A DNA stretch of 64,000 nt, taken from assembly GCA_022750155.1 (NCBI GenBank), contig JAKIWG010000006.1:14339-78338 (forward strand), read 5' to 3'. Source of the DNA: Thermoplasmata archaeon. Its GTDB lineage: Archaea; Thermoplasmatota; Thermoplasmata; Lutacidiplasmatales; UBA184. Within the stretch, counting starts at the first letter, position 1. Each line of letters opens with the position of its first letter. The notes under the pieces were generated by a model. It searched no databases. It saw only the letters and a list, made by a program, of their open reading frames with translations, and was not told where the DNA came from. Made by a program: the position numbers and the translations under genes. Of this stretch, positions 11,294 through 53,477 are shown in pieces.

Positions 11294-11623
11294 TTCCGGC
11301 GCTGCTGGGCGACCTCCAGGGTGCCCAGCCCCCCCATCGGTCGCCTGGGCACCCGAGTCCCACGGGCCGATCCAGATCCCCAACCCGACAGGGACGCCGG
11401 AGGAATCGAGACGACGAGGGTCCCCCTGGCCCGGATCCGAGTCCTCCGGTGGCCACCGTGGACACATTGGAGCGGTCTCCGAGCCGGACGAATCCTCCGG
11501 TCGAGCCCGTCGAACACGCCTGGCCCCGAACCGCGGGGACACGGACTCCACCGAGTAACGGAGTTCTCGCAGAGTATCGCCGCCGGCGGTCTAAATACCG
11601 TATTCCCGTCCCAGCGGTCGTCG

Positions 11624-14230
11624 ATGAGCGCGGCGTTCACCCCAAGCAAGCCCATGCTGATTCCCCGGCGGTTCGGACGATTACGGCCGCTGTTCCTCCC
11701 CGTGGTCTTCGGCCTGATCCTCCTGATGCTATGCCCGTCCGTCCCCGGGCCACTTCACGCCGTCCCGGGCAAGGCTTCGACGGTGGGTAGCGCCTCTCAC
11801 GTCACAGGGTCGGACTTAGTGACCGAGGCCAGAAACTCGCTCCATACCCCACTGGCCCACGCGGGCCCCGCCCGGCCCCCGGGCAATGGGTCGACCGCTC
11901 CCTCCTGGTATCCTGCGGCCGGGTTCGGTTCTTCGACCTCGAACCCGGCCCCTCGACGCGATATGCAGATGACCTACGATGCCGCCGACGGCTACGTCCT
12001 CATGTTCGGCGGTGCCGGCGCGGTCCTCTACAACGAGACCTGGGTGTTCCAGAACGACTCCTGGCGTGAAATCTTCCCTGCCGTCTCCCCCCTACCGACC
12101 GGAGGGGGAGAGATGGTCTACGATGCCCACGACGGATACGTAGTGCTATTCGGCGGTCAGGTGAATGGCGCGGTGGTGTCCAACCAGACCTGGGAGTTCC
12201 TCGGAGGGAACTGGACGCAATTGTTCCCTTCGGTCTCTCCCCCGGCTCGCCAACTCGCCGGGCTCACGTACGACGCGGTGGACGGGTTCGTCCTGCTGTT
12301 CGGCGGGAACGACAACGAGAACATCTCCTACTCCGACACCTGGTCGTTCGCGGGCGGGAGCTGGACCAACCGGACGTCCTCCGTCGGGACCGGACCCTCG
12401 CCGCGGTCCACTTCGATGACCTACGACGCCACGGATGGGTACGTGCTCCTGTTCGGAGGGGCGCCTACGGTGGGTGCCGCGTTCGGCGACACGTGGAAGT
12501 TCGATCGGGGGAACTGGTCGGTGGTAAATCCAACCTCTTCCCCATATGCCCGTTGGCCTGCCCCCATGGCGTATGATGCGGCCGACGGCTACGTCCTGCT
12601 GTTCGGGAGCATCGGCGTCCAGGGGGCCAACGGATACCAGAACGACACCTGGGAGTATCGGGGCGGGGCCTGGAGCGAAGTGTTCGGTGCCTACACGCCG
12701 AGCGGACGCTGGGTGAGCGCGATGACCTATGACCCGGCAATCCGCGCGGTCGTCCTATACGGGGGATATCTTCAACCGAACGACCTGGGGGACACCTGGA
12801 CCTTTTCCGCGGGGAACTGGACCGCATGGGAGCCGGCCGCGGGAGCGACCCCCCCGGCCCGGTCGGATCCTGCCATGGCCTTCGACGCGGCCGACGGATA
12901 CGTCCTGCTGTTCGGGGGGCAGGGCGCCTCCGGCCTCCTCAACGACACCTGGAGCTACGCGGGCGGGACCTGGACCCCTCTCTCCCTGGGCCATTCGCCC
13001 ACGCCCCGCAGTGGCTCGGCCATGGTCTACGACTCGACCGACCACTACCTCCTCCTGTTCGGAGGGTCGGGCGCTTCCGGCCCACTCAACGATAGCTGGC
13101 GCTTCTCGAATGGCAGCTGGCAGGTTATCCCACCGGCGGGGGGGGTCTCCCCGCCGGCGCGGGCGAACGCCTCGATCGCCGACGACGCGCGCGACGGGTA
13201 CGTGGTCCTGTACGGCGGGCTCGCCGGGGGGGACCTACCGGATACCTGGAGCTATGCCGCCGGCGCCTGGCACCGACTCACGCCGAGCTCCGCACCCTCC
13301 GCCCGGAGCGGTGCGGCGATGGCGTACGATCCCGTGACGGGGCGCGTGATCCTCTTCGGGGGGATGATGTCGACCAGCACGAGTCCCCCCAATTTCTCGC
13401 AGTTCTCTGAAACCTGGGCCTTCACCAACGGTCATTGGAGCCTGCTCAACGTCAGCGGAGCGCCGAGCCCGCGCGATGGAGCCGGTCTGGCCTACCTACC
13501 GACCGCGAGGGCGCTGATCCTGTACGGCGGCAATATCGGGCCCCCCGGCAGCCCCGGCACGGACACGTGGGCGTTCAACGGTACCAATTGGACGAACCTG
13601 TTCCCGTCGGTCGACCCCGGCCCGGCCAGCTACTTCGGCTTCGGGTGGGAGGCGACTTCCGGCGCCATCGCCCTCTTCGGCTCGTCGGTCCCGGGGGCCG
13701 GGCTGCCGATCACCTGGCAGTTCAGCTACGGCACGTCGAACAACTCCTCGGGGTACCCCGCGGCGCCGCTCCGGGTCACGACGAGCGTGCTGCGGGCCTC
13801 GGGAGGTCCTCCGGAGTTGGTCGTCCTCACCGCCGTGATCACGGGGGGAACCCTCCCTTACACACTGCAATGGATCTTTGGGGACGGCACCCAAGGTTCT
13901 GCGCGCCCGGATGCGGCGGTCTCCCATACCTACCCCGGAGCCGGCCGCTTCACGGCCGTCTTGATCGTACAGGACGGGTCTGGACAGCGAGCGCAGACCT
14001 CGACACCCATCCAGGTGGCTCCCCCAGCTGGCCCGGGGTCTCCCAACGGTCCCCTGGGCGGAGAGGTCGCCGGGCTCCTCGCAGTGCTGGGGGCAGCGCT
14101 CGTGGGCGGAGCCGTCGCCACCACCTACCTGTACCACCGGTACCGGCTTCGCGAACTCGAGCGTCGGGAAGGGGAAACGCTCGTTCGGGAACTCCGGAAA
14201 TCTCAGGAGGGGGCTCCCGGGCCGCCCTGA
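11624..14230 (+). CDS. Surface Kelch-repeat beta-propeller plus PKD domain, with C-terminal TM and short cytoplasmic tail
   Basis: Signal-like N-terminus; about 12 repeats of MxYDAADGYVLLFGG...DTW; PKD motif WIFGDG..VSHTYPGAG; TM followed by RRE-GETLVREL. Confidence 0.88.
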   Translation: MSAAFTPSKPMLIPRRFGRLRPLFLPVVFGLILLMLCPSVPGPLHAVPGKASTVGSASHVTGSDLVTEARNSLHTPLAHAGPARPPGNGSTAPSWYPAAGFGSSTSNPAPRRDMQMTYDAADGYVLMFGGAGAVLYNETWVFQNDSWREIFPAVSPLPTGGGEMVYDAHDGYVVLFGGQVNGAVVSNQTWEFLGGNWTQLFPSVSPPARQLAGLTYDAVDGFVLLFGGNDNENISYSDTWSFAGGSWTNRTSSVGTGPSPRSTSMTYDATDGYVLLFGGAPTVGAAFGDTWKFDRGNWSVVNPTSSPYARWPAPMAYDAADGYVLLFGSIGVQGANGYQNDTWEYRGGAWSEVFGAYTPSGRWVSAMTYDPAIRAVVLYGGYLQPNDLGDTWTFSAGNWTAWEPAAGATPPARSDPAMAFDAADGYVLLFGGQGASGLLNDTWSYAGGTWTPLSLGHSPTPRSGSAMVYDSTDHYLLLFGGSGASGPLNDSWRFSNGSWQVIPPAGGVSPPARANASIADDARDGYVVLYGGLAGGDLPDTWSYAAGAWHRLTPSSAPSARSGAAMAYDPVTGRVILFGGMMSTSTSPPNFSQFSETWAFTNGHWSLLNVSGAPSPRDGAGLAYLPTARALILYGGNIGPPGSPGTDTWAFNGTNWTNLFPSVDPGPASYFGFGWEATSGAIALFGSSVPGAGLPITWQFSYGTSNNSSGYPAAPLRVTTSVLRASGGPPELVVLTAVITGGTLPYTLQWIFGDGTQGSARPDAAVSHTYPGAGRFTAVLIVQDGSGQRAQTSTPIQVAPPAGPGSPNGPLGGEVAGLLAVLGAALVGGAVATTYLYHRYRLRELERREGETLVRELRKSQEGAPGPP
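11960..13700 (+). repeat. Intragenic Kelch-type repeats (about 50 codons each)
   Basis: Recurring GACGGNTACGTNCTNCTGTTCGG and GACACCTGG motifs. Confidence 0.8.
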
Positions 14231-14237
14231 CCCCCCG

Positions 14238-15602
14238 ATGGCCTGCGCCCCGCCGCTTCGACCTCCCCCCGCCCGCTCGGGCCGTTGGCCCGGAGGGATT
14301 CTACTCGCCGTGATCATCGTCTTCCTCTCCCCGCCCGGCGGACCGACCCCCACCGTGGGGTCTGCCACGCCGGGAGGCAATGGATCGACCGCGACCTCCT
14401 GCGAGACCGGGCTGGTGGTGATCTCCGTACCCACCCAAGGGCCGGCCCCGTTGCTCGTGCAGTTCTCGGCGATCGTGAACTCGCCCGCCCACACCGGGTT
14501 CTCGTGGTCGTTCGGGGATGGGGCGATGGTCGTCGGAACCAACGGGTCCGAACATTCCCTCGTCCACCTCTACCAGTCGGCTGGCAACTACCTGGCGAAC
14601 GTGACGGCCGCCGGCCCCAACGGGACCCTGAGCTGCTCGATCGGCATCGTCGTGACGCGCGGCGGTCTTGAGGCCCACATCTTCGAGTCTCCTCATTCGG
14701 GCACAGTCCCCTTCACGGCTCACTTTGTGGGGTCGGCCTCGAACGGCACCGACACGTACCACGAGTTCCTATGGGATTTCGGCGACGGTGGGCAGGGGTC
14801 CGGGGTCTCCCTCAACTACACGTTCCGGACCTCGGGGAACTACACGGTTTCATTGAGGGTCGACGATAGCTCCGGGGCCTCGGCCATCGCCACGGTCCGC
14901 ATCCTGGCCCTCCCCAATCCCTCCCGGTCGCCCTCGCTGGGCGATCCGAACGCAGGGGGCTTGGGCGGGCTCAACGGCCCGTTACTGTGGGAGGGGGTGA
15001 CGGTCAGTGCCGCGGTGATCGTGGGCGTGGGACTCTTCGCGCTCGCACTCGCACGACGAGGAGCCGCTCGGTCACTCGCCCCCGGGCTCGAGAGGGTGGG
15101 GCCGTCGGCCGATGCCCGCAATCGGGTCGAGACGGCCCCGCTTGCGCCTACCCCGCCCATCGAGATCCCCGGGGCCGCGGAGACTGTGGAAGTAACGGCT
15201 CCCCCGGCTCGCACTGCAGGTTCTGTCCCACCTCGCGCCGCGGTGGGAGGTGGGACCGGTGTATCCGTCGAGTCCGTACGGCTCTCCCAACGGATCATTC
15301 GGCATCTCGGACGGTCCGGGATACTGGCTCAAGAGGGGACGGTGGGCCGTGAGTTCACGCAACGAGGGATGGCCGAGGCCCTCGGGGTCCGGCAGGGACC
15401 TCTGTCGAACGTCCTTCGACGGCTGGTAGCAGCCGGTGTCGTCACCGAAGAGTTGCGCCACGTCCGAGGCGCACCTCGCCGCGTCAAGGCCTACCGACTG
15501 AGTGCCGAGGGCAGGGCCCTCGCCCTCGAGATCCGTGCCGGGGAATCGGAACGATTGGGGCGAACGCTCCAACCGTCTGAACCTACGCGGATCCCCCGCT
15601 GA
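14238..15602 (+). CDS. Membrane-tethered regulator: signal, 2x PKD, TM, Pro-rich linker, winged HTH
   Basis: WSFGDG and WDFGDG PKD motifs; TM WEGVTVSAAVIVGVGLFALALA; C-terminal FTQRGMAEALGVRQGPLSNVLRRL..GVV...KAYRLSAEG. Confidence 0.85.
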   Translation: MACAPPLRPPPARSGRWPGGILLAVIIVFLSPPGGPTPTVGSATPGGNGSTATSCETGLVVISVPTQGPAPLLVQFSAIVNSPAHTGFSWSFGDGAMVVGTNGSEHSLVHLYQSAGNYLANVTAAGPNGTLSCSIGIVVTRGGLEAHIFESPHSGTVPFTAHFVGSASNGTDTYHEFLWDFGDGGQGSGVSLNYTFRTSGNYTVSLRVDDSSGASAIATVRILALPNPSRSPSLGDPNAGGLGGLNGPLLWEGVTVSAAVIVGVGLFALALARRGAARSLAPGLERVGPSADARNRVETAPLAPTPPIEIPGAAETVEVTAPPARTAGSVPPRAAVGGGTGVSVESVRLSQRIIRHLGRSGILAQEGTVGREFTQRGMAEALGVRQGPLSNVLRRLVAAGVVTEELRHVRGAPRRVKAYRLSAEGRALALEIRAGESERLGRTLQPSEPTRIPR

Positions 15603-15897: not shown

Positions 15898-16653
15898 TCA
15901 ATTGTCGCTGACCGAAACCGACCCGGTGCCGATGCTCTTGAAGAACGCGTGCGCTCCGTGGTACGTGCCGATGATCTGGAAGTTCCCGACGGTGTTGTCG
16001 AAGGCAGTGAACCGCACCGTGCAGCTCCCCGAGACGAGGGTGCAGACGCCGTGGTTGGAGAACTTCCCGATCGCCCCGGCGCCTGAGTAGGTCGAGAACG
16101 TCACCGTCCCCGTCGGCGCGGTCGAGCGGTTCGCCAGATCCGTGACGTTCGCGGTACAGTGGGTCGAGCCCCCGGCTCCGAACGTCTGCGGGCTGCACGA
16201 GACCGCCACCCGCGTGCCGTCGTAGTTCGTGACGCGGAGCGAGATCGTCCCGGAGACCAGTTTGTAGGTGTATCCGCAACCGGTGCGGCTGCAATGCTGG
16301 GTGGCGTTCACGTACACGTCCGTGGAACCGAGGACCACCTTGCCGGTGTTCGCATCGATCCCGAACGCGGTGCCTTGCACGTGATCGATCGTGCCCGAGC
16401 GGTTGACCACCATCGCCGAGTAGGTCCCGATCGTGGCGTTCGTCTCCCCGGGGAGTCTAAACCCGATCGAGCCGAACACGCTCGTGACGGCGTATCCGCT
16501 ACCCGCCGTTCCGTTGAGCACGAAGTAGCACGACGTGAGCTGGCTGCAGGAGGTCGCTGTCCCGGTGACGGAGGCCGAGCCGGCGGCGGTGGGAACGACC
16601 GCGAGGAGGAGCAGCACGACGGAGGGCACGAGGAGCGTACCGAGGAGCTTCAC
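15898..16653 (-). CDS. Secreted Cys/Thr-rich protein with C-terminal Ig-like domain
   Basis: Signal peptide; Cys pairs; APTGTVTF..CTL..GSC..Y.G Ig-like pattern. Confidence 0.8.
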   Translation of the reverse strand: MKLLGTLLVPSVVLLLLAVVPTAAGSASVTGTATSCSQLTSCYFVLNGTAGSGYAVTSVFGSIGFRLPGETNATIGTYSAMVVNRSGTIDHVQGTAFGIDANTGKVVLGSTDVYVNATQHCSRTGCGYTYKLVSGTISLRVTNYDGTRVAVSCSPQTFGAGGSTHCTANVTDLANRSTAPTGTVTFSTYSGAGAIGKFSNHGVCTLVSGSCTVRFTAFDNTVGNFQIIGTYHGAHAFFKSIGTGSVSVSDN

Positions 16654-17275: not shown

Positions 17276-18541
17276 TCAGTCGGCGGACCGCCGGTCGGAC
17301 CCGCGCTCGCCGCGCCCTCGGGCCCCCTCCCCGTGCGAGGCCCCGTGGGTTCGGTCCCCATCGTGGCCTCCGAGGCCGCACCCGCCGAAGTAGTCGGCAA
17401 TGAACAGCAACCCCTTCGGGCTGACGAAGTGGTTTCCCAACGGGGTGATGTTCCCGGTGAGAAGGTTCAGCGTCCCGACGAGCGGGTTGCCGTTGTCGCT
17501 GGGCTCGCCGACGAACACCGTCCCCGCGGGCCAGCCTGTCGTGTTGAGGGCCAGGAGGGTGTTGGCCTTCGCGTCGACCACGTAAAGCGTCCCCGCGCTG
17601 CAGGTGGCGACCGCCATGCCGTCGAGCGGAGGGATGTTTCCGGACCGGTTGTCGAGGACCGGGAGGACGTGGAGCAAGGGGTGGTTGCCGAGGTGGGAGG
17701 CGAAGACGATCTGTCCATCGGCCTGACCGATCGTCGCGAGTTCTCCTGCGAACCGGGGGCTGGAGGCGGGCATGATGAAGTTCGTGTCGGGGTCGGTCAA
17801 GGCGAGCGACACCGTCGAGTGGGTGAGGACGTTGAGCGCCGAGCTGTCGTCGAAGAACACCGGCGTCAGCTGCGCGACCAGGGTCGAACGGTGGAGGGTG
17901 ACCAGGTAGTCCGTCGCCTGGGTCGTGTCGTTCGGGTTCGAATGGGCGACATAGATCACCCCGGCGCGGACCGCGATGCTGTCGGTACCGCCGTTGCCGG
18001 AGACGGCTGGGTCGGGACTGTACGTGTAGGTCGCGACCCCCCCGGTCGCCGGGTCGATGAGGAGCAGCCCGGAGTGGTCGTCCTCGTTGACGGTGGCGAT
18101 CAATGTACCCATCCACCGGTCCGCGCTCAGCCCGTCGACCTTTCCCGTAACGTTCAGGGTGCGCACGATCGCCCCGCTGATCCGGTCGTACCCGACCACG
18201 GTGCTGTAGGTCGGACCGCCCGGGGATCCGGGGGTGCCGTTGGGGTTGACCCCGTTCTGGTAGGCGGTATAGATTACGTCTCGGCCGTGGTCGAGCCCCC
18301 GGAGGGCAAGGTGGGTGATGTCGTCCGGTCCCTTGGCCCAAGCGGGGGGTCCCGAGACGAACGTCGACTGCGGAAGCGTCGCGGGAGGTGCCCCGTGCCC
18401 CCCGGCATGTCCCACGAGCTGGCCTAAGGCGTTCGGAGCGGCGGGCGCGGCGGGCGCCGCGAGGAACCCCCCCGTCGAGGCGATTATGGCGATGGATAAC
18501 GCCGTGTACCCGAGGACCCGCGAGACCCGTTTGCCGAGCAT
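17276..18541 (-). CDS. Secreted beta-propeller-like protein
   Basis: Signal MLGKRVSRVLGYTALSIAII; GPDDI, GKVDGL, GGTDSI, DPD, SPKGLLF blade-like motifs. Confidence 0.78.
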   Translation of the reverse strand: MLGKRVSRVLGYTALSIAIIASTGGFLAAPAAPAAPNALGQLVGHAGGHGAPPATLPQSTFVSGPPAWAKGPDDITHLALRGLDHGRDVIYTAYQNGVNPNGTPGSPGGPTYSTVVGYDRISGAIVRTLNVTGKVDGLSADRWMGTLIATVNEDDHSGLLLIDPATGGVATYTYSPDPAVSGNGGTDSIAVRAGVIYVAHSNPNDTTQATDYLVTLHRSTLVAQLTPVFFDDSSALNVLTHSTVSLALTDPDTNFIMPASSPRFAGELATIGQADGQIVFASHLGNHPLLHVLPVLDNRSGNIPPLDGMAVATCSAGTLYVVDAKANTLLALNTTGWPAGTVFVGEPSDNGNPLVGTLNLLTGNITPLGNHFVSPKGLLFIADYFGGCGLGGHDGDRTHGASHGEGARGRGERGSDRRSAD

Positions 18542-18704
18542 GCCTTCGGATTCTCGGGGGTCCCTGAATAGTCTGCCCCGGTAGATTCCGGAGCCCACCG
18601 AAGAGTCCGGGGGCGCACGGGGTTTTCCGAAGGGCCGTTGGCCATCGGCGTCGCGGTCCCGTAGTCCCTGTCACCGGGAGGGGTCGTCGGGGCTGACGCG
18701 ACGG

Positions 18705-18992
18705 CTACCGGGACGCGGTCCAGACCATGGCGCCCAGACCGGTCGCTTCGCACAGCCCGATCCCAAACAGGAACGGGACGAACGAATCCGGAATGATGGG
18801 CATCGCCGAAAGGTCCGAGAACACCGTGAGGGCGCTCTGGGCGATGAACGCCCCGGCGAACACGAGCAAGGCGAGGCCGAACGGGCTCTTCGCCTCGGTG
18901 TAGAGTCGCCGATACAGCGCGAACAGGCCGACGGCGAGCGCGATGCTGACGAGGCCAAGCAGGATGCTGGCCTCCATCAGGAGGCCCGTCAT
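18705..18992 (-). CDS. Small 3-TM membrane protein coupled to a wHTH regulator
   Basis: ATG overlaps the upstream stop (ATGA); Y....KSPFGLALLVFA motif; three hydrophobic helices. Confidence 0.78.
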   Translation of the reverse strand: MTGLLMEASILLGLVSIALAVGLFALYRRLYTEAKSPFGLALLVFAGAFIAQSALTVFSDLSAMPIIPDSFVPFLFGIGLCEATGLGAMVWTASR

Positions 18993-19345
18993 TGGACCCC
19001 TTGGGAACTTCGGCCAAGCGGCGTCCCGGCCCGCGCGGGCCGGTGACGGGGGCGTCCGGAGCAATCGATCGCCTCCCAAACTAGGTCGAAGTGCTCCGCC
19101 AGGTAGGGCGAGAGCTCGTAGGGAGGAGCATACGCACCGGGGACGGTGCGGGCGACCACGTGGTTCTGTTCCAAGAGCCGCAGGTGGTGTCGGACGGTTC
19201 GGTAGTCCAGATCTAGGGTGGAGGAAAGCTGGTGGGCGTTCGCCGGCGATCGTCGCAACTCCTCCAGGAGCCGACGCCGGTTCGGGCCCCCGCGAGTGCC
19301 AGCGAGGAGGTACCACATCAGGGAACGGAAGGCCGGGTTCAGCAT
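18989..19345 (-). CDS. ArsR-like winged-helix regulator
   Basis: WYLLAGTRGGPNR..LL..L...PANAHQL...L.LDYRTVRHHL..L, an archaeal ArsR signature. Confidence 0.88.
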   Translation of the reverse strand: MLNPAFRSLMWYLLAGTRGGPNRRRLLEELRRSPANAHQLSSTLDLDYRTVRHHLRLLEQNHVVARTVPGAYAPPYELSPYLAEHFDLVWEAIDCSGRPRHRPARAGTPLGRSSQGVQ

Positions 19346-35861: not shown

Positions 35862-36713
35862 ATGCAGCGAACTTACCCCAGAGAACCGCGAGCGGGTCGA
35901 GACGCCGTCAAGCCCGGGCGTTGGGTCTCGGCCACGAGCACCACCGCCTTCGCCGTGACGCTCCTTCTGCTGGTCGCGCCCGCGACGCTGGGCGCCCACG
36001 CCGTGGTCCTGACCGCCCCGTATTCCGGGGCGAAGACCACCTCCTCCGAATCCTTGTCGGTTTCCGGCTGCGCGCACGCCGGGGTCCCCACGAGGGGCTA
36101 CTTCCACGGGAGCACCGGGATCGGGGGTCTGCGGGTCTGGAGCACGTCGCAGAGTTGCTCGGCGGGCTACGGGTACGGGTCGACCTCCTCGACCTCGTTC
36201 ATCTCCACGGTCCCCGTCACGCTGGCCCACTCGAAGGCCACCGTGGTCGCCGTCGTCCTGCTGCGGGCATGGGTGGCCGCCCACCTGACGCCCGGGACGT
36301 GCACGACGGGAAGCGGGAACTATTCGTCCTGCTCCGAGAGCGCGTATGCGAGCCTCTACGGGTACGTCTACCTGGCTGACATGACGAGCGGGGCGACGTG
36401 GTACCCCGCCAACTACCTCCTCGGCACCGCGCAGAGCATTTACCAGGGCTACTACTGCTACCTCGGAAACTGTTCGAGCTACACGAGCAACTACACCGTG
36501 CCGTTCCAGACGAGCTCCTCGACCTCCCTGACGATCAACGTCACGGGAGCCACGACGACCGACAGTTTCGCCCTCGTCGTCGACTTCAGCAGCTACGCGG
36601 ACTCGTACGTGAGCGCGTACGGCGCCACGCTCTCCGGTGCCAAGGCGTCGGCCACCGTCAACGCGGCATCCTCCGGAGAGCACATCGACCTCGCGTCGAT
36701 CACAATATCCTGA
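35862..36713 (+). CDS. Secreted Ser/Thr/Tyr-rich beta protein
   Basis: Signal; LTAPYSG; Cys pairs; TTTATA box at about 35780. Confidence 0.8.
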   Translation: MQRTYPREPRAGRDAVKPGRWVSATSTTAFAVTLLLLVAPATLGAHAVVLTAPYSGAKTTSSESLSVSGCAHAGVPTRGYFHGSTGIGGLRVWSTSQSCSAGYGYGSTSSTSFISTVPVTLAHSKATVVAVVLLRAWVAAHLTPGTCTTGSGNYSSCSESAYASLYGYVYLADMTSGATWYPANYLLGTAQSIYQGYYCYLGNCSSYTSNYTVPFQTSSSTSLTINVTGATTTDSFALVVDFSSYADSYVSAYGATLSGAKASATVNAASSGEHIDLASITIS

Positions 36714-36790: not shown

Positions 36791-37543
36791 TCAGACGACC
36801 TTGATGTAGACCAGGGTCGTCGGACCGGCCGCTGAGCCGACGGGCGAACCGATCAACGCGCTGGCGGACGAAGCGCAGCCGGACTTTGACGCGGCGAGCG
36901 TGGTGGCCTGAACGAACGTCGTCACGGCGTAGGAGTGACCCGCCGTGAGCCCCGCGATGAAGACCACGAGGTAGAGCCCTGTCGTCCCGGCGACGACGAG
37001 GCCCTTGTTCTGGAGGACGTGTTGGTAGATCTGGTGCGTTCCGTGGCCCACCGTGACCTGAGGTGAGACCGAGACATCGGTGACGTACCCGTAGAGGGCG
37101 ATCCGCGCCCCCGCGAACGTGCTCAGGTGGGTCGGGCTGGCGACGCAGGTGGTGTTGAGCACGACCGCCCATGTGACGTTCCAAAGGATGATGACCGAAT
37201 GGTTCCCGCTCGTGCACGTCGCCGGACACGAGAACGAGACGTTCTGGACGCCAGACCAAGCCTGGATCTTGTGGGCTCCGCCGCCGGAGGAGGTCGACTG
37301 CTGGCTCTGGTGGGCGACCCCGGTCGTGGGGTTGAAGCTCGGAGAGATCGCGAGGACGTTCGAACCGCTGCCGGACGCGGCCAGGACCAGCGAACCGGTG
37401 AAGGCGAAGCCGCCGTACGTGGTGTACGGTGCGACCGCTTTGAACAGCGGGGGTCCCGCCGAGGCGACGGGGGCGATGAGTACGAGGGCGAGGACCAGGC
37501 CGAAAGCGGGGAATGCCCAGGTGGATCGGCGTATTCGCGTCAT
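36791..37543 (-). CDS. Secreted beta protein, probable distant paralog of 35862..36713
   Basis: Signal MTRIRRSTWAFPAFGLVLALVLIAPVASA; APY, F..TTG and LYGYV.D motifs shared with the neighbour. Confidence 0.78.
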   Translation of the reverse strand: MTRIRRSTWAFPAFGLVLALVLIAPVASAGPPLFKAVAPYTTYGGFAFTGSLVLAASGSGSNVLAISPSFNPTTGVAHQSQQSTSSGGGAHKIQAWSGVQNVSFSCPATCTSGNHSVIILWNVTWAVVLNTTCVASPTHLSTFAGARIALYGYVTDVSVSPQVTVGHGTHQIYQHVLQNKGLVVAGTTGLYLVVFIAGLTAGHSYAVTTFVQATTLAASKSGCASSASALIGSPVGSAAGPTTLVYIKVV

Positions 37544-37638
37544 CGGACCCCGGAACCCGCGGCCGCTAGTTGAACGTTCGCACGGGAGCGGACGGTACCC
37601 GATCCCCGCCCAGCGTCCGACGAGCTGAGCCGTGCCCG

Positions 37639-38955
37639 CTACGGGGATCTCATCGAGCGGGTCGGGCGAAGGGCCGCGGCTCGGGCCCGTCTCCGAAGGT
37701 CTTGTCCGAGCCTTTCCCCGAGCGGTGTCAACCGGTAGACCTTCATCCTTCTCGGCTTTCCGCTCACATGGCGGACGTCTTCCGTGATCGCCCCCGCGTC
37801 CCGCAAACGTCGGAGGACGTTGCTGAGGCGATTCTGGGGGACCCCGAGCGCGTCCGCCATCCCTCCCTGCGTGAAGGCGTCGGTAGCCACCGCGTCGTTC
37901 GCGAGGGCCCCTTGCATCGAGAGGTGGACGACCACCCGTTGGGAGAGACGCAGGGTCTCGACCGGGAGATCGGGTTCGCGGGCCAGTGGGACGGGGTCGG
38001 GCACGCCGCCGGGGAACGGGCGTGGGCTCGCGGGCTCGGGCGCGACCGGAGCTACCCTCGCGAGCGGGGTCGGATCGGATGGAGTGGGGCGGTCGAACGC
38101 GGCACCCGCAGGAGCGCCCTGCGGAGAGCCCCGCGCGCTGCCCCGAAGTGGACCCGAGCGGTTTCTCGAGGTCATGAAGAGGGCGGCGACCACGACCCCG
38201 AGCGCTGAACCTCCCAATGCGAACACCCACCCGGGCTCGCCGAGGATCGTGAACGGGGGCGCGGCCGTCGGTCGGCCGGGCCCGGGGGAATCCGCGGATA
38301 CGTTCACCCAGACCGAGACCGTCGACCGGGTGCCTGCGCTGTCGGTCACGTTCAAGAGTATGCGATAGTGCCCCGGGGTCTGGAACGTATAGGTCACCTG
38401 CAGACCGCTCCCTTCGTCCCCGTCGTCGAACCACCACACGGCACTGAGGTAGGTCCCGGTTCCGCCCTGCACGGTGGCGGTGAACGTGACGTTCAGGGGG
38501 GCTTGGCCGACCGGCGGCGAAGCCATCGCGGTGGCCGTCAGCGTCGGGCGGAGCACCGTCACGGAGGTGGTGCAGACGGACCGGCCCTGGCTCGAATCGA
38601 CGACGACGGAAACGTTGTACACGCCGGGGGAGGCGAATCGATGCAGGGGAGAGGCATACAGCGGGCCGCTCCCGTTGTAGTAAGCCCCGTCCCCGAAACT
38701 CCAGGAGAACATCGGAGGGGTCTGCGAGGAGATCTGGACCGAGAAATTGGTCAGGAGCGGGGCGAATCCGCGGGACGGGCTCGCGGTCAGCGTCGCGGGG
38801 GCGCAGGTCGCCCCCGCATGCTCGGCCGGCCCGGTCGCCCCGAGGGGTGGAACGCCAAGCAGGAGCAACCCGGCGCCGAGACAGACCCACGCGGCGGCGC
38901 GGCGCGCGACACCGGCGGGATTCCGATCTCGGGGTGGACGATCCGTAGTGCTCAC
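37639..38955 (-). CDS. Membrane-tethered regulator: signal, 2x PKD, TM, Pro-rich linker, winged HTH (paralog of 14238..15602)
   Basis: GTG overlaps the upstream TGA; WSFGDG and WWFDDG; TM; LRLSQRVVVHL..FTQGGMADALGVPQNRLSNVLRRL..RRMKVYRLTPLG. Confidence 0.85.
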   Translation of the reverse strand: MSTTDRPPRDRNPAGVARRAAAWVCLGAGLLLLGVPPLGATGPAEHAGATCAPATLTASPSRGFAPLLTNFSVQISSQTPPMFSWSFGDGAYYNGSGPLYASPLHRFASPGVYNVSVVVDSSQGRSVCTTSVTVLRPTLTATAMASPPVGQAPLNVTFTATVQGGTGTYLSAVWWFDDGDEGSGLQVTYTFQTPGHYRILLNVTDSAGTRSTVSVWVNVSADSPGPGRPTAAPPFTILGEPGWVFALGGSALGVVVAALFMTSRNRSGPLRGSARGSPQGAPAGAAFDRPTPSDPTPLARVAPVAPEPASPRPFPGGVPDPVPLAREPDLPVETLRLSQRVVVHLSMQGALANDAVATDAFTQGGMADALGVPQNRLSNVLRRLRDAGAITEDVRHVSGKPRRMKVYRLTPLGERLGQDLRRRARAAALRPTRSMRSP

Positions 38956-40304
38956 CGCGCCCGGGCAATCAGCTCCGGGTCGATGTCGTCCTGAGTCAAG
39001 TGGTACACGAGTCGGTACCCCGCCTCGGTCCGGGCGCGAGACCACCGGCGCTCGGCGACTAGAGCCGTCCCCGCGAGGGCGACCAGCCCGAGCACGAGAA
39101 GGACCGGAGAGGCCCAGCCGCCGGTCCCCACGGCGGGAAGCAAGCCCCCGCCGGGCGTGCCGCCGGACGCGGACGCCCCGACCGAGACCGGAGGCAACGT
39201 CTCGGACCAAACGTGGCCGACGCCGTCCCGCACGGTCAGCCGCGGGGTGAAACTCCCCGCGCTCGCATAGGTGTGGGTGGAGAGGCCGCCATTCACCCCG
39301 GAGCCGGAGGTGCCGTCCCCGAAGAACCACTCGAGGGAGTACGGCGGAGATCCGCCGGAGATCTGGGTCTGGAAGGCGACGGTGAGCGGACCGCCTCCGG
39401 GGGGCGACGCTTGGTGAGTATGGACCATCAGCGGAGGCGAGGCCGTTACGTCGACCGCCGCGGTGGCACCGGCCAGGGCCCCGTCCGCATCGGTCATCAA
39501 CGCCGAGGCAGAGTAGTTCCCCGTGCGATTGTACACCCATGAAAGGGTCCAGATGCCGGTCCAGTTGACCGAGGCGTTGGTCACACACTTTCCGGGCTCG
39601 GGGCAGATCGTCATCCGATATGGCGAGGCCCCGCCGAGGACTTCCCCGGTGAGATTGTAGGTCGAGGGAGCGCCCCCCGGGCTGACCACGAGCTCGAAGA
39701 TGGGGGCGACCACCTGGACGAGGAGCCAGTAGGTGGAGAACGCACCGGACGCATTCGATAGTGTTCCGGTGAGGTTGTAGGTGCCTCCCGCCGTGTACGT
39801 GTAGTAGAAGGAGTAGGCGCCGAGACCGGACCAGTTGCGGGTCACCGTGCACGACCCGGAGACCGGACAGACCGTGAGCGTGAACGGTCCCGAGCCGTTC
39901 GGCACCGGTCCGAGACACCCTGAGGTGTAGAACCCGCCGCTCCAGTTCCCGCCGCAGGCCGTTGCCTGCAGATACGTCTTCAGCGGAGCGAAGCCGTAGG
40001 TGGGCGTCGCGAGGATTTCCAAGGCGAACGGGTTCGTTGAACTGCTGGGGGATCCCCCCGAGGTCGGGCCCCCCGAAGAGGAGTTCCCCGAGCCGTTGGC
40101 GATGCTGTTGGCGGACCCGCCGGAGGAGTGGTTGAACGGGCCGTCGAACGCCCCCCGGACGTCCACGGCCGGGGGGGCGAGGGGGCGAGTCGGAAAGGCC
40201 GTGCCCGCGAGCACCAGGGAAAGGAGGGGGAGGATGGCAAGGGCGACCCATGGTGCCGGGTGCGGAGCCCACCTAGGGCGACGGGGCCGGCACATCGCGG
40301 TCAT
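38952..40304 (-). CDS. Surface PKD-repeat protein with C-terminal TM and short tail
   Basis: Signal; GFAPL; GGASPY and GGSPPY; WFFGDG..HTYASAG; TM then TEA-GYRLVYHL. Confidence 0.83.
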   Translation of the reverse strand: MTAMCRPRRPRWAPHPAPWVALAILPLLSLVLAGTAFPTRPLAPPAVDVRGAFDGPFNHSSGGSANSIANGSGNSSSGGPTSGGSPSSSTNPFALEILATPTYGFAPLKTYLQATACGGNWSGGFYTSGCLGPVPNGSGPFTLTVCPVSGSCTVTRNWSGLGAYSFYYTYTAGGTYNLTGTLSNASGAFSTYWLLVQVVAPIFELVVSPGGAPSTYNLTGEVLGGASPYRMTICPEPGKCVTNASVNWTGIWTLSWVYNRTGNYSASALMTDADGALAGATAAVDVTASPPLMVHTHQASPPGGGPLTVAFQTQISGGSPPYSLEWFFGDGTSGSGVNGGLSTHTYASAGSFTPRLTVRDGVGHVWSETLPPVSVGASASGGTPGGGLLPAVGTGGWASPVLLVLGLVALAGTALVAERRWSRARTEAGYRLVYHLTQDDIDPELIARAR

Positions 40305-40385
40305 CGGACTCCTTGGGGGCGGCCGCGGTTAAGAACCCCCGCCCGAGATACGACGTGGGTACACCGCGAGGCGGCCGGGCGAGGT

Positions 40386-50936: not shown

Positions 50937-53477
50937 CTAGCGGGCGCGTGGGGAGGCGAGCCGTTGGGGCCAGGCCCTGCGGGCCAGGAGGCCGAAGATG
51001 GCCGCACTGAGCAGCGCTCCTGGGGAGAGCACGAGGAGCTCCAGCGGCCAGCCCGAGCCGGGCAACAGATGGAACGCCAACGGGGGCGTCCCGTTCGCCC
51101 TCAGCGCGCACACCCCCGGGATGGAGCACGGCGGAGTGCGGTTGAGCAGGAGAAACACCGGGGGCAGGGTTCCGGAGGAAGTGAGTATCACGAGCGTCGT
51201 GGCGCTCTCGTAGCCGGGGGCCGAACCGACCACCACCGCGGGACCAGGCGGTCGGAGGTCGGTGAACACGGCCGCTCCGGTGGGGCCGGTGGTCGCCGAC
51301 GCGTTCGGCGCGACGGTGACCGTCCCGCCCGCGATCGGATTACGGCTCTGTCGGTCGTCAAGCCACACCGTGAGGTTGGCGCCTCCCGGGGGTCCCAGGG
51401 AGAGTTTCCAGGTCGTGGTCTGGATCCACGGGTGGTAGGCGGGGCCGTAGGTGAGGTTTGCGAATCCGGGGGCCGATACGGTGACGCTGAAGTTCTCGGC
51501 GCCGACGGTCAGGTTGAACCACCCTCCGCGGCCGGTCTCGAACGACAGGGGAGCGAACGAGCCCGGGTCGAGGGGGCTCAGGAGTCCGCGAGCGCCGACC
51601 ACCGGGGTTCCGTCTGAGTTCCGTACGACCTCAATCCGGAGCGGGCCGCTCGCCCGCAGGGTGAGGTTCACCGACACATTCGCGTTCGGAGGAGTGAGTA
51701 CCGAACTGTTGGCGCCCGAGAACCCCGGGAGGGAGCCACCGAAGGTCAACCACCCGCCCGCGAACGGCAGCTGGAGGGGGCCCAGCTGGCCGGCGGCGTC
51801 GCAGGTCCCGAGGATCACGCTGGCGTCGAGCGTGACCGTCACGTCGGCAAGGGGGAACCGGTTCGACGCCGCGTCCGAACCCCAGCAGTGCACGGTGGCC
51901 GTGGGGAGATCCGTGAGGAGGACGGTCAAGCGCGCGGAGGGGAGATGAGGCGCAGTGAACGGGACCGTCCGGGAGTAGTAGCCCGCGTGGGACACCGTCA
52001 CGTTCCACCCGATGCCCGGGGAGACGTCCAGGGAAAGACTCCCCGTCGGGCCGGTCGACTGGGGGGCCGGGCTGCACGGGCCGTTGAACAGGACCGAGGC
52101 GCCGTCGATGGCCGCCGAGGTGGCGCGGTCCAGGACCGTGACGTTGAGCGCCGTCGATGGGCTCGGACAGGTGGGCGGCGGCGGGTTGGTGCCGTTGCCG
52201 AGCTTCGGGATGTAGCAGTTGGGCCATGGGGAGCCGGGGGATTGGAGCAGCCAGGTGAACGCCGGCAACCCCGCGAGGGAGGGGCTCGCCGACCAAATCC
52301 ACATCCCCGCACAGTTGCTCTCCTCCGGCTCGGCGACCGTCGGGTCGTAGAGGGGTGGGGGTGCGCCGTCCACGCCCAGCCGCGTCCACCGACCGGCGGC
52401 GGGGTCGAAGGTATACGTATCTCCGAACGCGATCGGTCCGAGGGGTCCCGGATGGAATCCCCCGAACAGCGTCGCGTCGTTCACCGTCGGGTCCCACATG
52501 AACGCCGGCGACGCCCGCGGGGCGATGACCGCACCGGTCGTGTTCACGACGCGCCACGCGCTCGCCCCCAGCTGGTAGGACCATACCGAGGACGAACAGA
52601 CCTCGCCACACCCCCCGAACAAGTAGAAGGTGTCGTCGACCGGGTCGAAGACCATCTCGGAACCGAACATCGGGGCCGGGGCGCCCGCGAGCGCCAGCCG
52701 GCTCCAGGCCAACGTCGACAGGTTGAGGAGCCACGTGTCGTTCCAGAGGGCCGCCCCCGTGGAACCTCCGAATCGGAATGACGGGTCGACCCCTCCTTCC
52801 AGGAGGGCGACCCCTCGGGCCGGGTCGATGGCCATCGCGGCGTTCTCGCGCGCCGACGGGGCCGGTCCTCCGGTCACGTTCCTCCAGCTCTGGGTAGGGA
52901 AGTCGAACACCCAGGTGTCGTTGGCCACCGCCTGGGTCGCGATGTCCGTGATCCCGCCGAAGATCGTCCCGATCCCGAGCGCGGCGTCCGAGACGTAGGA
53001 CATGTTCGCCCGCGCCGATGGGGAGACGCTCGGAGGCAGTTCCCACTCCGACCAGTTGAATTCGGTGGCGTTGTACTCGATCGTGACGTTGCCGAGCGTC
53101 CCGCTTCCGAACCCCCCGAAGATCGTCAGGTTGTTGGTGCGATCGTCCGTCAGGAACGCGCCGCCCTCCCCCTGGGTGTTGTTGTTGTTCCCTGCGCCGT
53201 AGATCCACCACCCCGTCAGCCAGTTGTACGCTCCGGAGGCCGACGCGGGGGCGAGCGCGCGGGCCGCCACTCGGTGCACTCCGGGGGGTTCGGGGCCGTG
53301 GGAGGATGCGATATGGAGGTGGACCCCGGGGGGAGTGAACGAGGGGCTGGCCCGAACTCCGGCGGCCCGCGGCAGCGGGAACGCGGAGGAGATCGCGAAG
53401 CAGACGACGAGGACGACCAGCCCCCATCGTGCCGGGAGGCCCCGGTGGCCCGGCCGCCGAAGAGGCGTCGCGCTCAT
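50937..53477 (-). CDS. Surface Kelch beta-propeller with carboxypeptidase-regulatory-like domains and C-terminal TM
   Basis: Signal; PSAR..M....IFGG..NDTW repeats; VTVSHAGY, VSAPGF, SAPGY repeats; TM anchor. Confidence 0.85.
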   Translation of the reverse strand: MSATPLRRPGHRGLPARWGLVVLVVCFAISSAFPLPRAAGVRASPSFTPPGVHLHIASSHGPEPPGVHRVAARALAPASASGAYNWLTGWWIYGAGNNNNTQGEGGAFLTDDRTNNLTIFGGFGSGTLGNVTIEYNATEFNWSEWELPPSVSPSARANMSYVSDAALGIGTIFGGITDIATQAVANDTWVFDFPTQSWRNVTGGPAPSARENAAMAIDPARGVALLEGGVDPSFRFGGSTGAALWNDTWLLNLSTLAWSRLALAGAPAPMFGSEMVFDPVDDTFYLFGGCGEVCSSSVWSYQLGASAWRVVNTTGAVIAPRASPAFMWDPTVNDATLFGGFHPGPLGPIAFGDTYTFDPAAGRWTRLGVDGAPPPLYDPTVAEPEESNCAGMWIWSASPSLAGLPAFTWLLQSPGSPWPNCYIPKLGNGTNPPPPTCPSPSTALNVTVLDRATSAAIDGASVLFNGPCSPAPQSTGPTGSLSLDVSPGIGWNVTVSHAGYYSRTVPFTAPHLPSARLTVLLTDLPTATVHCWGSDAASNRFPLADVTVTLDASVILGTCDAAGQLGPLQLPFAGGWLTFGGSLPGFSGANSSVLTPPNANVSVNLTLRASGPLRIEVVRNSDGTPVVGARGLLSPLDPGSFAPLSFETGRGGWFNLTVGAENFSVTVSAPGFANLTYGPAYHPWIQTTTWKLSLGPPGGANLTVWLDDRQSRNPIAGGTVTVAPNASATTGPTGAAVFTDLRPPGPAVVVGSAPGYESATTLVILTSSGTLPPVFLLLNRTPPCSIPGVCALRANGTPPLAFHLLPGSGWPLELLVLSPGALLSAAIFGLLARRAWPQRLASPRAR

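What the first reader, a model, noticed from the sequence alone, without database searches (positions are those of the whole stretch)
11624..15602. Candidate archaeal ToxRS-like transmembrane signalling pair, copy 1 (Kelch-PKD-TM partner plus PKD-PKD-TM-wHTH)
Seen: two adjacent genes with a 7-nt gap. The first is a surface double Kelch propeller with a PKD domain, one TM and a short tail containing GxxLVxxL. The second has a signal peptide, two PKD domains, one TM, a Pro-rich linker and a cytoplasmic C-terminal winged helix. Known: bacterial ToxR/ToxS and TcpP/TcpH are membrane-anchored transcription factor and partner pairs, but their wHTH is N-terminal; PKD domains are Ig-like surface interaction modules. 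Inference: a swappable sensor ectodomain docks on a conserved membrane-tethered factor that acts in place or after proteolytic release. I do not know of a characterised archaeal example.
Basis: partly seen in the sequence, partly recalled or inferred. Interest (0 to 1): 0.88.

Follow-up and report, generated by a model that had tools for sequence, protein, structure and literature searches.

The report
Archaeal surface sensor plus membrane-tethered regulator
Two adjacent genes in an uncultured Thermoplasmata archaeon encode a variable cell-surface protein and a membrane-anchored DNA-binding-type protein, a pairing repeated many times in its relatives that looks like an undescribed way for archaea to pass outside signals to genes.

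Summary
Gene 1 (11624-14230, 868 aa) is signal anchor, Kelch propellers, PKD, one TM and a 35-aa basic tail holding EGETLVREL. Gene 2 (14238-15602, 454 aa) starts 7 nt later: signal anchor, two PKD domains, TM, disordered Pro-rich linker and a C-terminal PadR/MarR-like winged helix.

The pair is one of five in this genome (two in the window). In 40 of 43 loci examined, the winged-helix gene follows a same-strand gene for a variable ectodomain, a C-terminal TM and a short tail. The tail motif is conserved while the ectodomains vary. The winged-helix protein occurs with PKD domains, with only a TM, or soluble.

Partner promoters carry a GTATC-type direct repeat just upstream of BRE/TATA that other promoters of the genome lack.

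Best reading: a co-transcribed co-component transmembrane signalling cassette, like ToxRS in logic but not homologous to it. DNA binding, partner contact and signalling are all inferred. The complex prediction gave no verdict and no RNA data were found. I rate it a new variant of a known kind (transmembrane transcription regulators), of moderate to high interest.

The parts
11560..11582 (+). Operator-like element of copy 1: two GTATC-type half-sites about 11 bp apart (ggagttctcgcagagtatcgccg), directly upstream of BRE/TATA
   Evidence: Sequence read. A weight matrix trained only on 21 sites from other genomes ranks it 29th of 4,253,610 positions in the genome. It is one of 4 composite operator+TATA+ORF sites in the genome.
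11588..11597 (+). TATA-like box (ggtctaaata), 36 nt before the ATG of gene 1; suggests a leaderless or short-leader transcript
   Evidence: An AT-rich heptamer lies at -42..-19 in 23 of 37 partner promoters, against 1 of 37 in a control window.
11624..14230 (+). Gene 1, partner or co-component (868 aa): signal anchor, Kelch propellers, PKD, TM, tail
13802..14005 (+). Membrane-proximal PKD domain of gene 1 (residues 727-794)
   Evidence: Pfam PF18911 and PF00801
14066..14122 (+). TM helix of gene 1 (residues 815-833)
   Evidence: Kyte-Doolittle mean 2.13 over 19 residues; basic residues follow
14123..14227 (+). Cytoplasmic tail of gene 1 (35 aa, pI 9.5) with the conserved motif RREGETLVREL
   Evidence: Alignment A3. 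Strict motif in 24 of 40 partners, loose in 33 of 40. In this genome, a slightly different regex that also requires a preceding R/K/Q matches 2 of 206 frames with a C-terminal TM, and both are partners.
14238..15602 (+). Gene 2, membrane-tethered winged-helix protein (454 aa)
   Evidence: There is a 7-nt gap after gene 1 and no promoter-like gap.
14412..14912 (+). Two PKD domains of gene 2 (residues 59-140 and 145-225), extracellular
   Evidence: Pfam; AF2 pLDDT above 90; 7 N-x-S/T sequons in the ectodomain against 0 in the cytoplasmic part
14997..15056 (+). TM helix of gene 2 (residues 254-273), followed by RRGAARS
15057..15254 (+). Pro-rich disordered linker (residues 274-339)
   Evidence: pLDDT below 50; 16% Pro; variable length and sequence in alignment A4
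15255..15566 (+). C-terminal PadR/MarR-like winged helix (H1-H2-H3-wing-H4), pI 11.7
   Evidence: AF2 pLDDT 89. Profile against PDB: PadR-family Rv3488, E 1e-6. Foldseek finds MepR, MarR and PadR regulators, 13 matches at E<=0.001.
38952..40304 (-). Copy 2 partner (450 aa): signal anchor, Ig-like region, PKD, TM, and a tail with a divergent motif
37639..38955 (-). Copy 2 winged-helix protein (signal anchor, 2 PKD, TM, linker, wHTH). The GTG at 38955 overlaps the partner's TGA by 4 nt (GTGA); an alternative GTG lies at 38910.
40343..40365 (-). Operator-like direct repeat of copy 2 (ggtgtacccacgtcgtatctcgg)
   Evidence: Ranks 1st of 4,253,610 positions with the matrix trained on other genomes; sequence read
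40328..40337 (-). TATA-like box of copy 2 (ggttcttaac), 33 nt before the partner's ATG at 40304

Best explanation
The two genes form one co-transcribed signalling cassette of a lineage-specific family in one order of Thermoplasmata.

Gene 1 is the input. It is a type I surface protein whose large, exchangeable ectodomain (beta-propeller plus a PKD or Ig stalk) meets an external ligand or surface. A single TM leads to a short conserved basic and amphipathic cytoplasmic tail (RR..REGExLVREL).

Gene 2 is the output. It is a PadR/MarR-like winged-helix transcription factor held at the membrane by a TM and a long flexible linker. In this copy it also carries two extracellular PKD domains.

The proposed coupling has two contacts:
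- The partner's tail and/or TM, which occurs in nearly all cassettes.
- A PKD-PKD contact outside the cell, where the factor itself has PKD domains.

The coupled signal changes the factor's ability to bind a GTATC-N6-GTATC-type direct repeat just upstream of BRE/TATA of its own operon, and perhaps of a few other surface-protein genes. That position suggests activation.

What is shown: the domain make-up, the topology indicators, the conserved pairing, the tail motif and the promoter element.

What is inferred: DNA binding, which protein binds the element, partner contact, the direction of regulation, and the ligand.
For: Domains and topology:
- Kelch, PKD and TM in gene 1; two PKD, TM, disordered linker and wHTH in gene 2.
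- Basic residues follow both TMs.
- Gene 2 has 7 sequons in its ectodomain and 0 in its cytoplasmic part. The ectodomain has pI 5.1 and the cytoplasmic part pI 11.7.

The wHTH is of the DNA-binding type:
- The profile matches the PadR-family regulator Rv3488 at E 1e-6.
- The AF2 model has pLDDT 89.
- All listed Foldseek matches at E<=0.001 are MarR or PadR-type regulators.
- R70 and R71 at the wing tip are invariant.
- In 11 of 12 loci from other Thermoplasmata families the same wHTH subfamily sits at the N-terminus of STAND-type ATPase-TPR proteins, a usual regulator architecture.

The pairing is conserved:
- 5 of 5 paralogs in this genome.
- 40 of 43 loci from 17 genomes.
- Partners are diverse: PKD in 33 of 40, Kelch in 18 of 40, mean column identity 13%.
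- They nevertheless keep the tail motif. In this genome the motif is specific to partners.

Operon structure:
- 7-nt gap in copy 1 and a 4-nt GTGA overlap in copy 2.
- A TATA box lies about 30 nt before the partner start in 23 of 37 loci, against 1 of 37 in a control window.

Promoter element:
- TAT sits at a fixed place 13 nt upstream of the TATA window in 14 of 25 aligned module promoters. Among 206 promoter-like sites in the genome it does so in 4, and 3 of those 4 are module promoters.
- A matrix trained only on other genomes ranks the copy 2, C28, copy 1 and C11 promoters 1st, 16th, 29th and 86th of 4.25 million positions.
- Of the 4 composite sites in the genome, 3 are modules.

Extracellular coupling: a PKD-bearing factor goes with a membrane-proximal PKD in the partner (22/1/3/14 in the two-by-two table).
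Against: - There is no experimental or expression evidence of any kind.
- The wHTH does not reach any Pfam curated cut-off.
- The association between factor PKD and partner PKD rests on at most 3 independent changes on the tree, so it carries no statistical weight once kinship is considered.
- The operator matrix is low in information. 29 of the 35 hits at its threshold lie neither at a module promoter nor upstream of a surface- or secreted-protein gene, and only 4 of the 35 pass the composite test. The aligned sites were chosen by a sampler that maximises the motif. Paralogous promoters may share sequence by descent. Nothing shows which protein binds the element.
- 3 of 43 factors have no partner: L050 and L070 are orphans and L049 is a fused form.
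- 7 of 40 partner tails lack even the loose motif, and the tail of copy 2 is among them.
- The 43 loci come from related genomes and are not independent.
Confidence: 0.6

Rival explanations
1. Sequestration, in the manner of an anti-sigma factor. The partner's cytoplasmic tail binds the winged-helix protein and keeps it inactive at the membrane. A signal at the ectodomain releases it or exposes its DNA-binding surface. The factor's own TM and PKD domains would be accessory.
For: - 6 of 43 winged-helix proteins have no TM at all yet still follow a partner that carries a tail motif.
- 11 more have only a TM with a few extracellular residues.
- The tail is the element shared by most partners.
Against: - No contact has been shown.
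- The long forms have their own TM and would stay at the membrane anyway.
- Some of the TM-less forms could be start-codon or assembly artefacts.
Confidence: 0.2
2. Regulated proteolysis. The signal leads to cleavage of the factor in or near its TM or its disordered linker, and the freed winged helix acts in the cytoplasm. The partner would protect it from cleavage or expose it, as TcpH does for TcpP.
For: - A 67-aa disordered Pro-rich linker lies between the TM and the wHTH.
- The genome holds three Peptidase_M50 (site-2 protease) matches.
Against: - M50 proteases are near universal: they appeared in all 14 control genomes. None lies beside the cassette.
- No rhomboid was found (the genome is 93.7% complete).
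- The linkers carry no conserved cleavage motif.
Confidence: 0.1
3. Not a regulator. The pair is a structural surface complex, such as an adhesin or S-layer-associated stalk. Its cytoplasmic winged helix would serve protein-protein contact or tether the nucleoid to the envelope, with no role in gene control.
For: - Winged helices also mediate protein contacts.
- The ectodomains are typical adhesin or surface modules.
- The wHTH is below Pfam thresholds.
Against: - The closest sequence and fold relatives are all DNA-binding regulators.
- Basic wing residues are conserved and the domain has pI 11.7.
- The same domain heads STAND ATPase regulators.
- The module promoters carry a specific conserved element.
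Confidence: 0.08

Closest known systems
Co-component transmembrane transcription regulators of enteric bacteria: ToxR/ToxS, TcpP/TcpH, VtrA/VtrC, PsaE/PsaF (PMC9214523, passages read)
   Same: - A membrane-tethered winged-helix transcription factor and a single-pass membrane partner.
- The two are encoded by adjacent or overlapping co-oriented genes.
- The extracytoplasmic parts evolve fast.
- The presumed logic is a signal outside acting on DNA binding at the membrane without phosphorylation.
   Different: - Here the DNA-binding domain is PadR/MarR-like and C-terminal, giving a type I topology with a signal anchor. There it is OmpR-type and N-terminal, giving type II.
- The partner gene comes first here, not second.
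- The partner here is a large Kelch or PKD surface protein with a conserved cytoplasmic tail. There it is a small lipocalin-like periplasmic protein.
- The host is an archaeon. That paper's main text has 0 occurrences of 'archaea'.
- No sequence or fold homology was found.
Transmembrane transcription regulators (TTRs) as a class (PMC10269533, passages read)
   Same: - It fits the definition used there: a predicted TM region plus a predicted DNA-binding domain.
- That survey reports 1,384 archaeal TTRs in 367 of 404 species, most of them single-pass.
   Different: - The survey mined genomes for proteins with a DNA-binding domain and at least one TM. This wHTH is below every Pfam cut-off and public names are 'PKD domain-containing protein', so such a screen would probably miss it if it relied on Pfam-type domain models. 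That is my inference.
- The main text has 0 occurrences of PKD, PadR, MarR or Thermoplasm.
- Its supplementary lists could not be seen.
ArnR and ArnR1 of Sulfolobus acidocaldarius (PMC6396743, passages read)
   Same: They are characterised archaeal membrane-bound one-component transcription factors that control surface structures.
   Different: - They have an N-terminal HTH, a HAMP-like and sensing domain in the cytoplasm, and two C-terminal TMs.
- They have no large ectodomain and no co-transcribed surface partner.
PadR-family regulators with a single C-terminal helix, for example Rv3488 (PDB 5zhc)
   Same: - It is the best sequence match to the C-terminal domain: E 1e-6 over profile positions 7-95.
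- The order of elements is the same: H1-H2-H3-wing-H4.
   Different: - Those are small soluble dimers.
- Here the unit hangs on a TM, linker and PKD chain.
- The Pfam PadR score is 16.1 bits against a cut-off of 27.
LytTR regulatory systems (PMC6193735, seen only as a search listing with the start of its abstract)
   Same: A transcription factor paired with a membrane protein in a two-gene unit, as in the soluble-factor variants seen here. That the membrane protein inhibits the factor is my recollection, not from any call.
   Different: The DNA-binding fold differs (LytTR), and as far as I recall the membrane protein there has no large ectodomain. I did not read the paper beyond the listing.

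Membership tests
ToxR/ToxS-type (VtrA/VtrC) co-component systems | N-terminal cytoplasmic OmpR-type winged helix on the membrane-tethered factor | tested here: not met
   The wHTH is C-terminal (residues 340-443). Its best matches are PadR, MarR and Crp-type families, and no OmpR-type (Trans_reg_C) family appears among the hits.
ToxR/ToxS-type (VtrA/VtrC) co-component systems | Partner with a lipocalin-like periplasmic domain | tested here: not met
   Partners carry Kelch, NHL or other propellers and PKD or Ig domains.
ToxR/ToxS-type (VtrA/VtrC) co-component systems | Adjacent, co-oriented, often overlapping genes (operon) | tested here: met
   7-nt gap in copy 1 and a GTGA overlap in copy 2. 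40 of 43 loci are paired. The gene order is reversed relative to ToxRS.
ToxR/ToxS-type (VtrA/VtrC) co-component systems | Obligate contact between the extracytoplasmic domains of the two proteins | tested here: inconclusive
   There is only a co-occurrence of factor PKD with partner proximal PKD (22/1/3/14), resting on at most 3 independent changes on the tree.
Transmembrane transcription regulators (TTR, sensu PMC10269533) | At least one predicted TM region | tested here: met
   TM at 254-273 by hydropathy and in the AF2 model
Transmembrane transcription regulators (TTR, sensu PMC10269533) | A predicted DNA-binding domain | tested here: met
   Met by profile and fold. It is sub-threshold in Pfam, and DNA binding itself is untested.
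PadR family (PF03551) | Match to the family model above the curated cut-off | tested here: not met
   16.1 bits against a cut-off of 27. NCBIfam padR_acidobact gives 20 bits against 101.8.
PadR family (PF03551) | wHTH followed by a C-terminal helix, with similarity to solved PadR proteins | tested here: met
   Rv3488 at E 1e-6. H4 spans 79-99 of the domain model. PadR chains 5h20 and 5zi8 are among the Foldseek matches.
MarR family | Match to Pfam MarR or MarR_2 above the cut-off, with the flanking dimerisation helices | tested here: not met
   MarR_2 gives 16.5 bits against 27. Foldseek aligns to MepR and MarR with TM 0.5-0.68, but the targets are 30-40 residues longer.
PKD domain (PF18911/PF00801) | Match above the cut-off | tested here: met
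   Gene 2: 84.4 bits, two stretches. Gene 1: 37.5 bits.
Kelch beta-propeller | Repeated Kelch motifs above the cut-off | tested here: met
   PF24681 at 174 bits with 5 stretches; Kelch_4 at 124 bits
ArnR-type archaeal membrane-bound regulators | N-terminal HTH, HAMP or sensor domain, and two C-terminal TMs | tested here: not met
   The architecture is the reverse and has no HAMP domain. The ArnR layout is taken from PMC6396743.

The most novel reading that the evidence does not exclude
This order of Thermoplasmata uses a phosphorylation-independent transmembrane signalling system of its own. Interchangeable surface receptors (Kelch, NHL or PKD) would each be wired, through a conserved cytoplasmic tail helix (REGExLVREL), to a dedicated PadR-like factor. 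That factor ranges from soluble through TM-tethered to PKD-bearing. The factors would activate their own operons and parts of the surface proteome through a GTATC-N6-GTATC site next to BRE/TATA. In effect this would be an archaeal counterpart of the ECF sigma and anti-sigma or co-component systems, evolved independently.
Probability: 0.3. Interest if true: 0.8.

Novelty: new variant of a known kind. Interest (0 to 1): 0.62.

Why it matters
Little is known about how archaea carry signals across the membrane to transcription. The characterised membrane-bound regulators I found (ArnR and ArnR1) sense on the cytoplasmic side.

This cassette would be a modular outside-in route with a clear evolutionary series: soluble, TM-only, PKD-bearing and fused forms. 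It has up to six copies per genome among those sampled and roughly 700 clusters in public data at E<=1e-10. Public annotation names them only as 'PKD domain-containing protein'.

It also gives concrete, testable parts: a 100-aa domain, a 23-bp candidate site and an 11-residue tail motif. All three can be tested in vitro, although the organisms are uncultured.

Tried and rejected
- **Complex prediction.** I sent the partner TM plus tail (alignment A3, 62 aa) against the factor from its TM to the C-terminus (alignment A4, 207 aa). The score was 0.07 against a mark of 0.32, so there is no verdict. It counts neither for nor against binding.
- **Expression.** No RNA holder was listed. One soil-metagenome DNA run holds 0.20 of the sampled words.
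- **Downstream genes as a third member.** The genes after the five cassettes of this genome share no similarity (all-against-all blastp at E<=0.01 gave self hits only). Most have no Pfam family. I rejected the idea.
- **Proteolysis machinery.** M50 is present, but it is universal and not linked to the cassette. No rhomboid was found. This is not informative.
- **PKD-PKD co-occurrence as proof of docking.** The naive Fisher p is 4e-7, but there are only 1-3 independent pairs on the tree, so I do not use it as statistical support.
- **The operator matrix on its own.** It is too weak: only 4 of 35 hits pass the composite test, and 29 lie neither at a module promoter nor upstream of a surface-protein gene. 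It becomes specific only together with the TATA spacing.
- **A wider regulon of surface-protein genes.** The C10, C34, C11:1019 and C51 genes are a lead only.
- **Literature.** Six searches found no description of a PKD-TM-wHTH protein or of this pairing. Supplements are closed, so the TTR lists of PMC10269533 may contain related proteins that I could not see.
- **Not assessed.** How far the TM-tethered form extends beyond the 14 extra loci examined.

Full report
**Observation**

The window has 61-74% G+C. The closest named database relatives of gene 2 are from 'Thermoplasmata archaeon' records.

Gene 1 (11624-14230, +, 868 aa):
- Pfam finds Kelch repeats (PF24681, E 3.7e-51, five stretches) and one PKD domain at residues 727-794.
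- Hydropathy gives an N-terminal hydrophobic segment (22-40) after a basic n-region, and one TM (815-833).
- The TM is followed by TYLYHRYRLRELERREGETLVRELRKSQEGAPGPP.

Gene 2 (14238-15602, +, 454 aa):
- It starts 7 nt after the TGA of gene 1.
- Pfam finds two PKD domains (E 5.7e-24). The winged-helix families match only weakly, E 0.0025-0.011, all below their curated cut-offs.
- An AF2 model built on 40 homologs shows two beta-sandwiches (59-140, 145-225; pLDDT above 90), a TM helix (255-273), a disordered stretch (276-339; pLDDT below 50) and a compact C-terminal domain (344-443; pLDDT above 90).

**The C-terminal domain**

I aligned 16 C-terminal domains (A1).
- As a profile against PDB sequences, the best match is the PadR-family regulator Rv3488 (5zhc, E 1e-6), followed by DNR, AdcR, MntR, MarR and SlyA.
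- The AF2 model of the domain alone (pLDDT 89) has the order H1, H2, H3, beta-hairpin wing, H4.
- Foldseek against the PDB gives 13 matches at E<=0.001. All listed are MepR/MarR-type regulators, and PadR chains follow closely.
- Invariant columns include Q31, G33, Q42, R51, R70, R71 and Y75. R70 and R71 sit at the wing tip.
- The domain has pI 11.7.

**Topology**

- Basic residues follow both TMs (RRGAARS in gene 2; YHRYRLR in gene 1).
- Gene 2 has 7 N-x-S/T sequons in its 222-aa ectodomain and none in its 182-aa C-terminal part. Gene 1 has 20 outside and 0 in the tail.
- The ectodomains are acidic (pI 4.7 and 5.1) and the C-terminal parts basic (pI 9.5 and 11.7).

These are indicators, not proof, that the winged helix is cytoplasmic.

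**The pair recurs**

tblastn inside the window finds a second pair on the minus strand. The partner is at 38952-40304 and the factor at 37639-38955. A GTG overlaps the partner's TGA by 4 nt.

The whole genome (2.13 Mb, 51 contigs, 93.7% complete) has five such factor genes. Each lies directly after a same-strand gene for a surface protein with a C-terminal TM and a short tail. One of the five factors (contig C28) has no ectodomain at all: six residues, then a TM, a linker and the wHTH.

**Relatives**

A profile search of 301 genomes of the class found the wHTH in 220 at E<=1e-8. I fetched the 38 best non-own hits. They come from 16 genomes, all of the same family except one of the same order.

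Of 43 factor loci, the 5 own included:
- 39 have an upstream same-strand, GC3-rich frame with an N-terminal hydrophobic segment, a C-terminal TM and a tail. The tail is 26-50 aa in 38 of them. In L053 the hydropathy threshold missed the last TM, but the tail and motif are there.
- One more, in a low-GC genome (L061), has such a gene that my GC3 filter missed.
- The three without a partner are L049 (one 1304-aa frame of beta-propeller ectodomain, TM and wHTH) and the orthologous orphans L050 and L070.

Pfam families across the 40 partners: PKD in 33, Kelch in 18, NHL in 3, and other propellers, SprB or Ig domains. Mean column identity is 13%.

**The tail**

Aligned tails read: TM, a basic stretch, then (R/Q)-x-E-G-x-x-(L/W)-(V/I/L)-x-x-(L/M) (A3).
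- The strict pattern EG..[LWI][LIVA]..[LMI] occurs in 24 of 40 partners and a loose form in 33 of 40. The tail of copy 2 matches neither.
- In this genome 206 coding-like frames have a C-terminal TM and a 12-50 aa tail. A slightly different regex that also requires a preceding R/K/Q matches 2 of them, and both are partners.

**Forms of the factor**

Among the 43:
- 25 have PKD domains. 23 of these have a partner and 2 are orphans.
- 1 is fused to another ectodomain.
- 11 have only a TM.
- 6 have no TM that I could find.

Among 157 proteins from the public searches:
- 100 are PKD plus TM plus C-terminal wHTH.
- 25 are short TM plus wHTH.
- 30 have no TM; some may be fragments.
- 2 have the domain away from the C-terminus.

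The family has 2,021 representatives at E<=0.001 and 738 at E<=1e-10 in 1.84 billion cluster representatives.

I also examined 14 further loci.
- The one from the same order has the PKD-TM-wHTH form.
- One from the same family has FN3-TM-wHTH.
- Of the 12 from other families, 11 carry the wHTH at the N-terminus of AAA_16/NACHT-like ATPase, often with TPR.
- The remaining one carries it before nine TMs.

**PKD with PKD**

A PKD-bearing factor goes with a W-x-F-G-D-G signature near the partner's TM in 22 of 23 cases. A PKD-less factor goes with it in 3 of 17. On a tree of the wHTH domains the factor trait changes only 3 times and there are 1-3 independent pairs. The association therefore fits an extracellular PKD-PKD contact but carries no statistical weight.

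**Promoters**

I took 37 partner upstream regions.
- 23 have an AT-rich heptamer at -42..-19 from the predicted start, against 1 of 37 in a control window. This suggests TATA boxes and short or absent leaders.
- No such space exists before gene 2, so the pair is probably one transcript.
- A sampler aligned 25 of the 37 regions on TATC-(10 nt)-GGTTTAT. A second, weaker GTATC-like half-site lies 11 bp further upstream. The consensus is GGAGTATCTGCGGCGTATCTCCGCCGGAGGTTTATAAA.

Controls:
- This genome has 206 TATA-like sites that stand 22-41 nt before a coding-like ORF. Their upstream positions carry no information. Only 4 have TAT at the module position, against 14 of 25 in the module set. Three of those 4 are the copy 1, copy 2 and C11 module promoters.
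- A 23-nt matrix trained only on the 21 sites from other genomes ranks the copy 2, C28, copy 1 and C11 promoters 1st, 16th, 29th and 86th of 4,253,610 positions.
- Of 35 hits at or above 9.2, 4 also have a TATA at the module spacing and a coding-like ORF. Three are modules. The fourth is a Kelch-Ig-TM gene cut by the end of contig C10.

Weaknesses: the sampler favours the motif, the matrix alone is weak, kin are not independent, and the binding protein is unknown.

**Reading**

The shown facts fit a co-transcribed input-output cassette: an exchangeable surface receptor with a conserved cytoplasmic tail, and a PadR/MarR-like factor held at or near the membrane.
- The tail is the most widely shared feature and some factors lack any TM, so I think the tail (or the TM) is the general coupling point.
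- PKD-PKD contact would be an addition in the long forms such as this copy.
- The promoter element lies just upstream of BRE/TATA. From general knowledge of archaeal regulators, that position would suit an activator.

The rivals are sequestration and release, regulated proteolysis, and a non-regulatory structural role.

**Comparison with what is known**

The logic is that of the bacterial co-component regulators (ToxRS, TcpPH, VtrAC; PMC9214523) and of TTRs in general (PMC10269533). Every family-defining feature of ToxRS that I could test, except gene adjacency, is not met. Characterised archaeal membrane-bound factors (ArnR and ArnR1; PMC6396743) have the opposite layout and no partner. Six literature searches found no description of this cassette. 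Supplements could not be read.

**Verdict**

I rate it a new variant of a known kind, with interest 0.62. All function is inferred, and the tests listed under decisive next steps can be done in vitro.

Noticed in passing
window 50937-53780 (-), Kelch matches at 52332-53168: A third Kelch-repeat ORF (947 aa) lies in the window. No winged-helix gene was detected next to it.
   Followed up: no
G000:C1:1744-4161 (-), and loci L022-L031 and L033: The same winged-helix subfamily sits at the N-terminus of AAA_16/NACHT-like STAND ATPase proteins, often with TPR. This holds in this genome and in 11 of 12 loci from other Thermoplasmata families.
   Followed up: partly
G000:C10:53056-55805 (+): A Kelch-Ig-TM gene has the same composite operator+TATA as the cassettes. 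The contig ends inside its TM or tail, so a sixth cassette may be cut off there.
   Followed up: partly
G000:C34:70459-74281 (-), G000:C11:942-4372 (+), G000:C51:28125-29017 (+): Operator-like sites lie upstream of three other secreted or surface-protein genes that have no winged-helix gene beside them. These are a 1262-aa Kelch-Ig-TM protein, an 1118-aa secreted protein and a 275-aa secreted protein. They may belong to a regulon or may reflect shared promoter ancestry.
   Followed up: partly
L049:3385-7296 (+) and L021:1-1785 (+): These are single-gene forms. L049 has a beta-propeller ectodomain, TM and wHTH in one 1304-aa frame with no partner. L021 has FN3 repeats, a TM, a second degenerate winged helix and then the wHTH.
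   Followed up: partly
L050:1452-2939 (-) and L070:264-1703 (-): These are orphan PKD-TM-wHTH genes without an upstream partner. They share gene context and a conserved linker segment that the paired forms lack. A wHTH-ATPase gene lies nearby in both.
   Followed up: partly
window 15901-16653 (-), 17279-18598 (-), 35862-36710 (+), 36794-37600 (-): Four genes for secreted proteins with no Pfam family flank the two cassettes. They are not similar to each other.
   Followed up: partly
window 18992-19345 (-): A small ArsR-type HTH protein (PF01022, E 1.2e-6) overlaps a frame that looks like a membrane protein.
   Followed up: no
L003 (G000:C28), upstream of the partner gene: A masked run of N lies just upstream of the C28 partner's promoter region and limits what can be read there.
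   Followed up: no
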